Positions 3,001-6,000 of a stretch of 64,000 nt of DNA are shown here, one piece after another. A program made the position numbers. Each line of letters opens with the position of its first letter. Position 1 is the first letter of the stretch. Location of the stretch: NCBI RefSeq assembly GCF_017348835.2, contig NZ_CP071375.1; one strand, written 5' to 3'. The stretch is from Escherichia coli. Its GTDB lineage: Bacteria; Pseudomonadota; Gammaproteobacteria; Enterobacterales; Enterobacteriaceae.

Positions 3001-6000
3001 TGTTGACCGGTGTAATTTCTCTCGCAAGGTCGCTCATCTAACCGCTATCCCTCTACTGTATCCCGGATTCAAAGGTCGCAAATTATAACACAGCCGCGCA
3101 GTTTGAGGTAAACCTATACGCTTTATTCACATCCAATGCCTGATATACTCGTTTGTCTTGCCAATTACGGAGTAGAAGTGCCAATGAATGCCGAAAAATC
3201 GCCGGTAAACCATAACGTAGACCACGAAGAGATCGCTAAATTTGAAGCCGTCGCCTCCCGCTGGTGGGATCTTGAAGGTGAGTTCAAACCGTTGCACCGC
3301 ATTAATCCGCTACGTCTGGGCTATATTGCCGAGCGTGCTGGCGGTTTATTTGGCAAAAAGGTGCTCGATGTCGGTTGTGGCGGCGGCATTCTGGCCGAGA
3401 GTATGGCGCGCGAAGGCGCGACGGTGACCGGTCTGGATATGGGCTTTGAGCCATTGCAGGTGGCAAAGCTGCACGCGCTGGAAAGCGGCATTCAGGTGGA
3501 TTACGTGCAGGAAACCGTGGAAGAGCACGCGGCAAAACATGCCGGGCAGTATGATGTGGTGACCTGCATGGAGATGCTGGAGCACGTCCCCGATCCGCAG
3601 TCAGTAGTCAGAGCCTGTGCGCAACTGGTGAAACCGGGCGGCGATGTCTTTTTCTCGACGCTTAACCGCAACGGCAAGTCATGGCTGATGGCGGTGGTTG
3701 GCGCGGAATATATTTTGCGCATGGTGCCCAAAGGCACGCATGATGTGAAGAAGTTTATTAAACCGGCAGAGCTGCTTGGCTGGGTAGATCAGACAAGCCT
3801 TAAAGAGCGACATATAACCGGGCTACATTACAACCCGATCACTAATTCTTTTAAACTCGGCCCCGGCGTGGATGTGAACTATATGCTGCACACGCAGAAT
3901 AAGTGAGGTTGTTGTTTGGATTCATCCGGCAACCGCGCCAATGCCTGATGCGACGCTTGCCGCGTCTTATCAGGCCTACAAATGCTCTCCGTAGGCCAGA
4001 TAAGGCGTTTACGCCGCATCCGGCAATAGTGATGGTCAGACAGCGATTACCATTTCACCGTCATCGACAAAAATCCTGCCGTCTGGGCAAAATCATCACT
4101 CCCTTTCTGCCACGCCACGCTGCCGCGCAGGGACACTCGCTGACTGATATTGCCCGTGACTCCCACTTTTATTTCACCCCGTTGCTTCACCGCATCGTCA
4201 CTGATAGTGCTGCCATCCTCTTCAATTTCCGTCGAATGGGGATCGTGATAATAATTCAGATCTAATGTTGGTATGACATGAACAGCGGTACGCCATTCGC
4301 TGTGTAAACCCAGCCGCGTCTGAATATCATCACCCTGCGATTGTGACACGCGCGCACGGTTAGCGGCGGTAAAATCATCCTGCTGCACGCCCTGATAAAT
4401 CACCTGCGCCTGCGGTTCAATCACCACACCACGCCCCGGTAACCATTGATACCCGGCTTCCAGCGAGGCGATAATCCCCGACGAATGGTAATGATCCGCG
4501 CCATCGTCTTGTTCGGAAACATCATTGTTAAACCACGCGTATTGCAGCCAGTTATCCAGCCAGGCCCCCTGCTTCTGATTACCGTGCTGAAACCAGCTTG
4601 AGGTTAGCCCAACGGCATAACCGTGGTTCTGGTTATCGGCGCGAGTTCCGGTCAGATTCGAGCGGCTGTCGCCCTGGTTATCGCTGTAGCCACCTACAAT
4701 CCCAAGCATCCACTCGCCATCATCGCCCCAGCGCCCGCTAAACAGATCGCCGCTTAGCTGCACCGTAGAAGTGTCTTCATGCTGAGCCAGTTGCCCTGCC
4801 GCCGTGTAATGATAACGTCCGCCGATAACACGTAAATTCAGCGTCTGACCATCGCCACCAGCGTGATCGCGTCGCTCCATCACAAACGCCTGATTTGCCG
4901 CCCGCAGGTTATTGAGATAACCGCCAACTTTGGCATTCAGCACCGGCTGGTAAGCGGGGATTGGATCGGGTGTTGGGTCAGGATCGGGGGTTGGGTCCGG
5001 GTCTGGATCAGGTGGCGATGGCGGCGTTACTTCTTGCGATCGCAGATACCAGTCGTTGTTATCTTCCACCAGCGTGTAGTCATACGCTCCCATGTTGACG
5101 TAGCCACTGCCTGCCAGACTGAACTGCGCATTGTTTTGAAACTGCGTGGGATCAGCTGCGAAATCAACCACTTTAATGCCTGTCGATGTCGGCTCACCAA
5201 TCCCTGTAATGGAGTTAACCACCACAGTTGTGTTGCCAGCAGTATTACCGTTCATCACCAATTGATCGCTTACCGAGTCATCGCCGTTTAATTCGCTATC
5301 GAGCAGTAGCGTACCGCCGCCGGTATAATCACCGTTTACCGTCAGCGTATCGCCAGCGACGCCATTTTGCAGGCTAACCGCACCGGACGTATTGGTCAGA
5401 TTGCCATTAACCGTCACGTTGGAAAGATAAGTCAGGCTGTCAGTTTCAAGGTTGGTATTAAGCTCACCTGTCAACGTCACACCATCGGTGGCATTCACCA
5501 GCGTCCCATCGCCGTTAAACAGTGAGGCATTAAGGGCGACGGAAGTATCCTGCCCGGTCAGGCGCAAAACCGTACCATCGCTGATGTCAATAGTGCCGCT
5601 GGAAATAGCATCAATTGACTGAATATCCTGATCCGCGCCAGTAACGAACGTTGCCCCATCACCAACCCACAGTGACGAAGCATAAGGAAGGATATCAGCA
5701 ACATCACCTTTCAGGGTGCCTTCTTCGACACGTACCGCCGACTGCGTTGTACCGCTGGCGGTCAGCTCCAGCGTACCCGCCCCCGTTTTCGTCAATGTGC
5801 TACCCTCATCCTGATGCTGCCCGCTGCTGTCAGCCATCAGTGCGCCCCACTGCGTGTCTACCCCCGCATCAACTGCCACTTCACCGTCGGCGCGCATTTC
5901 AATATCACGCCCATGCTCAGTCGTTGTAGAGCGAGTATCGACATTGGCAGTAATCTCCATCACGCTTTCTTGTTGATTATCGGTAAAGATAACCTGGCGG

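What the first reader, a model, noticed from the sequence alone, without database searches (positions are those of the whole stretch)
4961..5020. Imperfect tandem DNA repeat encoding the Pro-Asp linker of YfaL
The segment ggatcgggtgttgggtcaggatcgggggttgggtccgggtctggatcaggtgg is built from GGNTC(N)GG-type units and encodes PPSPPDPDPDPTPDPDPTPDPIP between passenger and translocator domains. Such repeats are prone to slipped-strand expansion or contraction, which would change the linker length and therefore how far the passenger domain is displayed from the cell surface. The ORF here is 1244 aa against about 1250 aa recalled for K-12.
Basis: partly seen in the sequence, partly recalled or inferred. 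Interest (0 to 1): 0.25.

Follow-up and report, generated by a model that had tools for sequence, protein, structure and literature searches.

The report
Variable-length proline-rich linker in YfaL
A short imperfect DNA repeat in the E. coli surface-adhesin gene yfaL encodes a floppy proline-rich spacer whose length differs between strains (18 to 32 residues), an ordinary, slowly evolving polymorphism of a kind already known in this protein family.

Summary
Window 4956-5027 (- strand) encodes TPPSPPDPDPDPTPDPDPTPDPIP, residues 919-942 of a 1244-aa YfaL/EhaC autotransporter (CDS 4047-7781, - strand). It contains two 18-nt tandem units that match at 16 of 18 positions, plus a partial third.

The spacer lies between the autochaperone domain and the pore helix and beta-barrel. 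It is the only low-confidence, structure-free stretch in an otherwise confident AlphaFold model.

Across complete E. coli genomes I found eight linker lengths (18, 22, 24, 26, 27, 28, 30, 32 aa). One strain also has a 168-bp in-frame deletion that starts from the linker. Every change is a multiple of 3 nt. Several are exact 18-nt unit losses or deletions between short direct repeats, and the 18-aa form probably arose twice.

Change is slow. About 1600 genomes share an identical 93-nt K-12-type linker, 1226 of 5426 carry the window's length, and the sampled K-12-lineage and O157:H7 genomes are uniform. Frameshifts never occur here, so this is not a phase-variation switch.

Distant autotransporters carry similar Pro-rich spacers of variable length at the same site. 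Any effect on display distance is inferred, not shown. Low interest.

The parts
4047..7781 (-). yfaL/ehaC coding sequence, 1244 aa, a type Va (AIDA-I family) autotransporter adhesin.
   Evidence: The ORF is listed and translated. Pfam finds the PMP repeat, PATR, AC_1 and the Autotransporter beta-domain. A 100% identical copy is annotated yfaL in E. coli PE164. The K-12 gene order is gyrA-ubiG-yfaL-ypaB-nrdA.
4956..5027 (-). Proline-rich linker TPPSPPDPDPDPTPDPDPTPDPIP, residues 919-942 (24 aa by the measure used in this report).
   Evidence: Translation. Thirteen of its 24 residues are Pro. In the AlphaFold model residues 920-942 have pLDDT below 50 and no secondary structure. Most in-frame length differences among the 17 full-length alleles fall here.
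4963..4980 (-). 18-nt tandem unit 1 (+ strand GGATCGGGTGTTGGGTCA). Its reverse complement contributes to ...D PTPDP...
   Evidence: the repeat finder family D1 and the TRF period-18 array.
4981..4998 (-). 18-nt tandem unit 2 (+ strand GGATCGGGGGTTGGGTCC), matching unit 1 at 16 of 18 positions.
   Evidence: In alleles L006, L013 and L014 the two units are identical. Alleles L002 and L020 have only one.
4999..5014 (-). Degenerate further repeat (GGGTCTGGATCAGGTG) encoding the PPDPDP start of the linker.
   Evidence: the repeat finder family D2, 81% identical to 4957-4972. TRF's period-30 description covers 4955-5012.
4890..4934 (-). Predicted alpha-helix, residues 950-964 (KVGGYLNNLRAANQA), directly after the linker. 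It is the segment expected to sit in the barrel pore.
   Evidence: The AlphaFold model has helix 170-184, which is YfaL 950-964, followed by the barrel strands. It aligns with the corresponding region of the AIDA-I transport unit 4MEE.
5070..5402 (-). Autochaperone (junction) domain, residues 794-904, upstream of the linker.
   Evidence: Pfam PF18883 AC_1, E=2.5e-18.
4116..4835 (-). Outer-membrane beta-barrel translocator domain, residues 983-1222.
   Evidence: Pfam PF03797, E=4.8e-34. PDB 4MEE (AIDA-I) matches at E=6.5e-29. The model shows barrel strands.

Best explanation
The repeat is the coding sequence of a proline-rich, intrinsically extended spacer in the autotransporter adhesin YfaL/EhaC. 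The spacer joins the last strand of the autochaperone (junction) domain, which ends ...DWYLRSQ, to the alpha-helix that plugs the beta-barrel, which starts AYQPVLNAKVGGY...

The peptide is a run of P-D and P-T dipeptides. Its DNA therefore has 6-nt periodicity with 18-nt (PDPDPT) higher-order units.

This low-complexity DNA occasionally gains or loses whole codon blocks, either by replication slippage or by deletion between short direct repeats. Alleles are also moved between lineages by homologous recombination. The result is a stable, heritable, in-frame length polymorphism: 18-32 residues in E. coli, 24 in this window and 30 in K-12.

Basis of each step:
- Shown: the position of the linker, its disordered character in the model, the series of length alleles, and the repeat-bounded indels.
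- Inferred: slippage as the mechanism. Also inferred is that length changes alter the reach of the passenger by roughly 0.3 nm per residue if the spacer is polyproline-II-like, which is at most about 4 nm between the extreme alleles. The change is probably nearly neutral.
For: **Position.**
- Pfam places the linker between AC_1 (794-904) and the beta-domain (983-1222).
- The alignment to the AIDA-I transport unit 4MEE (E=6.5e-29) places it between the last junction strand and the pore-helix region.
- The AlphaFold model (mean pLDDT 84, pTM 0.80) has a single internal stretch with pLDDT below 50, residues 920-942. That is exactly the linker. Helix 950-964 and the barrel follow it.

**Allele series.**
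- Net length classes were read from match coordinates in three evenly spaced samples of 60 genomes each. Representatives were confirmed by sequence.
- The lengths found are 18, 22, 24, 26, 27, 28, 30 and 32 aa.
- Approximate frequencies over the 180 rows are 30 aa 63%, 24 aa 23%, 32 aa 6% and 22 aa 3%, with the rest rare.
- 1226 of 5426 genomes align full-length to the window's 78-nt linker, and every full-length row listed is ungapped.

**Mechanistic signature.**
- L002 and L020 equal the 24-aa type minus exactly one 18-nt unit.
- L006, L013 and L014 carry two identical 18-nt units.
- E. coli 042 equals the 32-aa type minus one 18-nt unit.
- L003 and L010 equal the K-12 type minus 24 nt between GATCC repeats.
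- VTB97022v lost 168 nt between two copies of TGATCCCACGC.
- L002 and L020 differ at the diagnostic CCG/CCT codon and in their flanks, so the unit loss probably happened twice.

**Hot spot.** Among 17 full-length genes, at least 7 in-frame indel events lie in about 30 linker codons. Only 3 lie in the other roughly 1220 codons.

**Stability.**
- The 93-nt K-12-type linker is 100% identical in 17 of 30 evenly spaced rows, which scales to about 1600 genomes.
- All sampled K-12-lineage and O157:H7 genomes have the 30-aa length.

**Generality.** Homologues at 26-34% identity have PD/PT/PE-rich spacers of different lengths at the same site. They come from Leminorella, Citrobacter, Stenotrophomonas and other sources.
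Against: - No experiment or within-culture data were available, so the actual slippage rate is unknown.
- As a DNA tandem repeat alone the signal is modest (2 of 200 shuffles reach it). Much of the periodicity is imposed by the peptide, so selection on the peptide could contribute to the pattern as well as mutational bias.
- The 24-aa and 30-aa types differ by more than one indel plus substitutions. Their relationship is therefore not a single slippage step.
- The distribution of lengths over flanking haplotypes is partly incongruent. Recombination explains that as well as recurrent slippage does.
- The alleles I sequenced were chosen because their length was unusual, so the hot-spot ratio is not an unbiased estimate.
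- The functional consequence (display distance) is untested.
Confidence: 0.85

Rival explanations
1. The linker is a contingency (hypermutable) locus. Frequent slippage would generate within-population length variants that adaptively tune or switch YfaL display, comparable to simple-sequence phase or antigenic variation.
For: - There are eight length classes and a probably recurrent 18-nt unit loss.
- Indels are concentrated in the linker.
- Short-read assemblies of Shigella sonnei and some E. coli break inside the linker with no IS end visible on the two S. sonnei contigs examined. Within-sample heterogeneity could in principle cause this.
Against: - There are only 2-3 imperfect copies of an 18-nt unit. 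That is far below the tracts that slip at high rates.
- All changes are multiples of 3 nt, so no on/off switching is possible. The two frameshifted yfaL pseudogenes examined have their frameshifts upstream in the passenger, not in the linker.
- An identical 93-nt linker is found in about 1600 genomes, and the sampled K-12-lineage and O157:H7 genomes are uniform.
Confidence: 0.04
2. The length differences are ancient allelic types that homologous recombination of yfaL segments merely shuffles between strains. On this view there is little or no ongoing slippage in the repeat.
For: - yfaL is a clear mosaic. Gene nt 251-750 of the window allele are 100% identical to the O157:H7 allele, nt 2001-2750 are about 99% identical to K-12, and the linker region is closest to other 24-aa alleles.
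- The 32-aa and 30-aa lengths occur on very different flanking haplotypes.
- E. whittamii already has a PDPIP-ending linker like the window's type.
Against: - Several rare classes are one-step derivatives of a common allele with otherwise identical linker DNA. They are 18 aa from 24 aa, 26 from 32, 22 and 28 from 30, and the 168-nt deletion. These look like recent events.
- The two 18-aa alleles derive from two different 24-aa subtypes.
- Recombination and slippage are not exclusive. Recombination is part of the best explanation.
Confidence: 0.1
3. The 1244-aa length is a sequencing or assembly artefact of a repetitive region in this particular genome.
For: Short-read assemblies do break in this linker.
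Against: 1226 complete genomes align full-length to the window's linker, and every full-length row listed is ungapped. The whole gene is 100% identical in an independent complete genome, PE164. The repeat is only about 55 nt, which is shorter than a single read.
Confidence: 0.01

Closest known systems
Proline-rich domain of the E. coli autotransporter TibA
   Same: It is a Pro-rich segment inserted between the junction (autochaperone) region and the membrane-embedded C-terminal domain of an AIDA-I-type autotransporter. [quoted passage not shown] The position is the same as in YfaL.
   Different: TibA's domain is about 50 residues, against 18-32 in YfaL. YfaL's is a regular PD/PT dipeptide array. 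I did not compare the sequences directly. No length polymorphism of the TibA domain was examined here.
Pertactin polymorphic regions R1 (GGXXP)n and R2 (PQP)n of Bordetella pertussis
   Same: These are Pro-containing short tandem repeats in an autotransporter whose copy number differs between strains and defines alleles (PMC3279416).
   Different: Pertactin's variation lies mainly in R1, a surface loop next to the RGD motif, and is discussed as immune- or vaccine-driven. YfaL's repeat is the passenger-to-barrel spacer, and nothing here indicates immune selection.
AIDA-I transport unit (PDB 4MEE)
   Same: It is the closest solved relative of the YfaL C-terminus (E=6.5e-29). It has the same order of junction strand, pore helix and barrel.
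   Different: In the alignment AIDA-I has only a short, non-repetitive stretch with few prolines where YfaL has the PD/PT array.
Simple-sequence contingency loci (slipped-strand phase variation in Neisseria and Haemophilus surface genes; own knowledge)
   Same: Tandem repeats in a surface-protein gene that change copy number by slippage.
   Different: Those loci have long perfect tracts of 1-7-nt units that shift the reading frame at high frequency. Here there are 2-3 imperfect 18-nt units, only in-frame changes, and clonal stability.
Pro-rich rigid spacers of envelope proteins, such as the TonB (EP)n(KP)n region and the OmpA hinge (own knowledge, not tested here)
   Same: Alternating X-Pro sequences that form extended spacers across or above the envelope.
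   Different: They are unrelated proteins in a different compartment (the periplasm). This is an analogy only.

Membership tests
YfaL/EhaC, AIDA-I-family type Va autotransporter | C-terminal 12-stranded beta-barrel translocator preceded by a pore alpha-helix | tested here: met
   Pfam PF03797 matches residues 983-1222 at E=4.8e-34. PDB 4MEE matches at E=6.5e-29. The AlphaFold model has helix 950-964 followed by barrel strands, with pTM 0.80.
YfaL/EhaC, AIDA-I-family type Va autotransporter | Passenger with beta-helix repeats and a C-terminal autochaperone domain | tested here: met
   Pfam finds Chlam_PMP, PATR, and AC_1 at residues 794-904.
YfaL/EhaC, AIDA-I-family type Va autotransporter | Orthology: the same chromosomal position as K-12 yfaL and high identity to it | tested here: met
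   The gene is flanked by ORFs of gyrA and ubiG size on one side and nrdA size on the other, matching the K-12 gene order gyrA-ubiG-yfaL-ypaB-nrdA. The protein is 96.4% identical to K-12 YfaL. The 100% identical gene in strain PE164 is annotated yfaL.
YfaL/EhaC, AIDA-I-family type Va autotransporter | N-terminal signal peptide and actual surface display or adhesion | not tested
   The N-terminus MRIIFLRKEYLSLLPSMIASLFSANGIAA looks like an extended signal peptide, but no predictor was run. PMC7251025 (citing Roux et al. 2005) states that yfaL overexpression in K-12 enhances biofilm formation.
Proline-rich passenger-to-barrel spacer of autotransporters (TibA-like) | Located between the junction/autochaperone region and the membrane-embedded domain | tested here: met
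   Residues 919-942 lie between AC_1 (ends at 904) and helix 950-964. The definition for TibA comes from PMC3835316.
Proline-rich passenger-to-barrel spacer of autotransporters (TibA-like) | High proline content and no regular secondary structure | tested here: met
   Thirteen of the 24 residues are Pro. pLDDT is below 50 and no DSSP element is assigned for residues 920-942. This is a prediction, not a measurement.
Proline-rich passenger-to-barrel spacer of autotransporters (TibA-like) | Conserved presence at the same site in relatives | tested here: met
   P0088, P0089, P0096-P0098, P0109, P0110, P0116, P0117 and P0120 all have Pro-rich spacers of different lengths between the conserved WYL(R/T/S) strand and the [YLV]RP..G.Y..N helix start, or its equivalent in P0120.
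Coding tandem repeat with copy-number polymorphism (VNTR-like) | Head-to-tail units whose number differs between strains | tested here: met
   There are one versus two 18-nt units (L002 and L020 versus window, L006 and L013), and E. coli 042 versus the 32-aa type. There are eight length classes in all.
Slipped-strand phase-variation (contingency) locus | Long, near-perfect repeat tract | tested here: not met
   There are 1.9 copies of an 18-nt unit at 89-94% identity.
Slipped-strand phase-variation (contingency) locus | Copy-number changes that switch the reading frame or expression on and off | tested here: not met
   All observed linker indels are multiples of 3 nt (6, 9, 18, 24 and 168). 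The frameshifts in the pseudogenes L014 and L015 lie outside the linker.
Slipped-strand phase-variation (contingency) locus | Variation within clones or cultures | tested here: inconclusive
   Sampled K-12-lineage and O157:H7 genomes are uniform, and about 1600 genomes share an identical linker. No within-culture read data were available. The contig breaks in short-read assemblies remain unexplained.

The most novel reading that the evidence does not exclude
Linker length could be a selected trait rather than neutral drift. On this reading, discrete lengths from 18 to 32 residues are maintained because they match the reach of the YfaL passenger to the thickness of the strain's O-antigen or capsule layer, and the recurrent unit gains and losses are adaptive adjustments. 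My data do not exclude this. Lengths are bounded, the 18-aa form probably arose twice, and the linker sits just outside the barrel.
Probability: 0.06. Interest if true: 0.45.

Novelty: already known. Interest (0 to 1): 0.15.

Why it matters
It matters little.

- **Annotation.** The result explains why YfaL length differs between strains (1238-1252 aa among the intact full-length genes examined). These differences are real alleles, not errors. Most intact length variants, including the K-12 versus window difference, differ only in the spacer.
- **Engineering.** Groups that use YfaL as a surface-display scaffold can take from natural variation that the spacer tolerates 18-32 residues.
- **Typing.** The linker could serve as a small typing marker. 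It is also a place where short-read assemblies may break.
- **Evolution.** It adds a documented case to the general observation that low-complexity Pro-rich spacers of autotransporters evolve mainly by in-frame unit indels.

Tried and rejected
**Ideas tested and rejected.**
- Phase-variation reading. Rejected because the repeat is short and imperfect, every indel is in frame, and clones are uniform.
- Artefact reading. Rejected because 1226 complete genomes align full-length to the window's linker and one has a 100% identical gene.
- A frameshift hot spot in the G-run of the linker. The two frameshifted pseudogenes sampled (LZSFT34 and HS-02) have an intact linker and their frameshifts lie upstream.
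- Paralogous copies of the linker DNA as the cause of short-read contig breaks. The 93-nt and 78-nt linker queries hit a median of one place per genome, at most two.

**Searches that gave little.**
- Cross-species survey with a degenerate DNA pattern for PVLNAKVGGY in one genome per species. It found only 3 loci (E. coli, Escherichia sp. E1V33, E. whittamii), so it added little.
- The search for homologous proteins returned mostly fragments, many from Shigella sonnei, and no full-length YfaL clusters. It was useful only for a few distant homologues.
- Literature. Two searches found no paper on yfaL linker length. The YfaL display paper PMC3346495 is not held. PMC2631898 did not contain the repeat motifs in its held text.

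**Limit of the counts.** An exact census of all 5426 genomes by length class was not possible, because only 60 rows are listed per search. I used three evenly spaced samples and two short-query counts instead.
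Full report
**What is in the window**

The string lies inside a 1244-codon ORF on the minus strand, 4047..7781. In that frame, window 4956-5027 encodes TPPSPPDPDPDPTPDPDPTPDPIP, residues 919-942.

- Tandem Repeats Finder reports a period-18 array at 4963-4997 (1.9 copies, 94% matches, score 63). It also gives an overlapping period-30 description at 4955-5012.
- The repeat finder reports two 18-nt units, 4963-4980 and 4981-4998, that match at 16 of 18 positions, plus a degenerate third.
- This 18-nt pair is the best two-unit tandem in the gene. 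Two of 200 dinucleotide-preserving shuffles reach its score, so the DNA signal alone is modest.
- The peptide signal is not modest. Thirteen of the protein's 28 prolines lie in these 24 residues, at alternate positions.

**What the gene is**

Pfam finds Chlamydia-PMP and PATR passenger repeats, the autochaperone domain AC_1 (residues 794-904) and the Autotransporter beta-domain (983-1222). In E. coli PE164 a 100% identical gene is annotated 'yfaL: AIDA-I family autotransporter adhesin YfaL/EhaC'. In K-12 the gene sits between ubiG and ypaB/nrdA, and the window's ORF layout matches this.

An alignment shows that all six extra residues lie in the linker.

**Where the linker sits in the protein**

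- The C-terminal 385 residues match the solved AIDA-I transport unit 4MEE (E=6.5e-29). In that alignment the PD/PT stretch falls between the last junction strand (DWYLRSQ) and the region that forms the pore helix. AIDA-I has only a short, non-repetitive stretch with few prolines there.
- I built an AlphaFold2 model of residues 781-1244 from an 18-sequence alignment. Its mean pLDDT is 84 and its pTM is 0.80.
- The model's only internal stretch with pLDDT below 50 is model residues 140-162, which is YfaL 920-942. That is exactly the linker, and it has no secondary structure. Helix 950-964 and the barrel strands follow.

More precisely, the linker lies between the autochaperone domain and the pore helix.

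**Does the length vary between strains?**

Yes. I ran three megablast searches of the complete-genome collection, each listing 60 evenly spaced rows. The difference between subject span and query span gave net length classes. I then fetched representatives and read their sequences (analysed).

Linker length is counted from the residue after WYLRSQxx to the P before AYQ. The alleles found are:

| Length (aa) | Where found | Relation to other alleles |
|---|---|---|
| 18 | L002, L020 | 24-aa type minus one 18-nt unit |
| 22 | L003, L010 | K-12 type minus 24 nt |
| 24 | window, L006, L013, L014 | PDPIP-ending type |
| 26 | E. coli 042 | 32-aa type minus one 18-nt unit |
| 27 | L007 | three codons (PPS) lost at the start of the linker |
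| 28 | ETEC1716 | K-12 type minus 6 nt |
| 30 | K-12, O157:H7, B2-type ATCC 11775 | most common type |
| 32 | L004, L009, L016, L021, L022 | 6 nt longer than the 30-aa type |

One further strain, VTB97022v, has a 168-nt in-frame deletion.

Over the 180 sampled rows the approximate frequencies are 30 aa 63%, 24 aa 23%, 32 aa 6% and 22 aa 3%, with the rest rare. Independently, 1226 of 5426 genomes align full-length to the window's 78-nt linker, and every full-length row listed is ungapped.

**Mechanism**

The DNA changes carry the signature of slippage or short-homology deletion:

- L006, L013 and L014 carry two identical copies of CCTGACCCAACACCCGAT, and L020 has one.
- L002 equals the window's own allele minus one 18-nt unit.
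- E. coli 042 equals the 32-aa type minus one 18-nt unit.
- L003 and L010 equal the K-12 type minus 24 nt between GATCC repeats.
- The VTB97022v deletion joins two copies of TGATCCCACGC. One lies at codons 876-879 and one in the linker. The deletion removes the end of the autochaperone domain.

L002 and L020 derive from two different 24-aa subtypes (CCG versus CCT) and have different flanks, so the unit loss probably occurred twice.

Among 17 full-length genes, at least 7 in-frame events fall in about 30 linker codons. Three fall in the other roughly 1220 codons: a 4-aa loss in L006, a 13-aa loss in L008 and a 2-aa gain in B2 alleles. These alleles were picked because their length was unusual, so the ratio is indicative only.

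**Rate**

Change is slow.

- The 93-nt K-12-type linker is 100% identical in 17 of 30 evenly spaced rows, which scales to roughly 1600 genomes.
- Every K-12-lineage and O157:H7 genome in the samples has the 30-aa length.
- All indels are multiples of 3 nt.
- The two frameshifted yfaL pseudogenes I examined have intact linkers.

This is not a phase-variation switch.

Recombination also redistributes alleles. The window's yfaL is a mosaic: gene nt 251-750 are 100% identical to the O157:H7 allele, nt 2001-2750 are about 99% identical to K-12, and the linker region is closest to other 24-aa alleles. Linker length is only partly congruent with flanking haplotype.

**Comparison with what is known**

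- A Pro-rich spacer at this site is general. Escherichia sp. E1V33 has 22 aa and E. whittamii has 26 aa, ending PDPIP like the window. Homologues at 26-34% identity from Leminorella, Citrobacter, Stenotrophomonas and metagenomes all carry PD/PT/PE-rich spacers of differing length at the same position.
- Copy-number polymorphism of Pro-containing repeats defines pertactin alleles in Bordetella (PMC3279416).
- I found no paper describing yfaL linker length.

**Function**

Length differences presumably change how far the passenger can reach. For a polyproline-II-like chain this is about 0.3 nm per residue, so the extreme alleles would differ by about 4 nm (own knowledge, inference). Nothing here tests that. 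I consider the polymorphism probably close to neutral.

**Verdict**

The feature is an ordinary, already-known kind of thing. Interest is low.

Noticed in passing
L005 (E. coli VTB97022v, NZ_CP178670.1), yfaL codons about 880-935; corresponds to window about 4980-5145: A 168-nt in-frame deletion between two copies of the 11-nt direct repeat TGATCCCACGC. One copy lies at AADPT (residues 875-879) and one in the linker. The deletion removes the C-terminal strands of the autochaperone domain and gives an annotated 1194-aa YfaL, which is likely defective in passenger folding or secretion.
   Followed up: partly
window 4047-7781 (the whole of yfaL): The window's yfaL allele is rare and mosaic. Only 2 of 5426 genomes are at least 99% identical over the whole gene (PE164 from pig is 100%). 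Gene nt 251-750 are 100% identical to the O157:H7 allele, nt 2001-2750 are about 99% identical to K-12, and the passenger of B2 strains is only about 70% identical. The surface domain is strongly diversified by recombination.
   Followed up: partly
L027 (end, 1900-1909) and L023/L025 (start, 1-20); Shigella sonnei short-read contigs: Many 'partial' YfaL proteins from S. sonnei, and some from E. coli, end in or just upstream of the linker. In one S. sonnei pair the upstream contig stops at ...CCGGATCCTG. The downstream contig starts at CGGCCCCTACG, at the same base in a SKESA and a Logan assembly. About 15 nt of expected linker are missing between them and no IS end is visible. The cause is unresolved: a coverage dip in the G-rich strand, heterogeneity, or an insertion.
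   Followed up: partly
L006 codons about 453-456; L008 codons about 545-557; L011/L015 about codon 545; H106; H120: Other yfaL lesions occur in the population. In-frame changes are a 4-aa loss (Z0117EC0148), a 13-aa loss (CB8671) and a 2-aa gain (B2 strains). There are frameshifted pseudogenes (LZSFT34, HS-02), an IS3-family insertion (E500002), and a genome that retains only about 25% of the gene (2017-02-2CC).
   Followed up: partly
window 3136-3906 (+): The ubiG ORF listed from its first ATG is 256 aa, whereas ubiG is annotated as 240 aa (723 nt) in the related genomes. The real start is probably 16 codons downstream of the first in-frame ATG.
   Followed up: no
window 8387-10264 (-): A 625-aa ORF lies antisense to, and almost wholly inside, the ORF that matches nrdA in size and position (8477-10762, +). 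It is most likely a spurious antisense ORF.
   Followed up: no
P0109 (metagenome autotransporter), linker region: At the same passenger-to-barrel site, a distant homologue carries a different tandem repeat, (DPVKPDDGNNGNV) in three copies, in place of PD/PT dipeptides. This shows that the site tolerates unrelated repetitive spacers.
   Followed up: no
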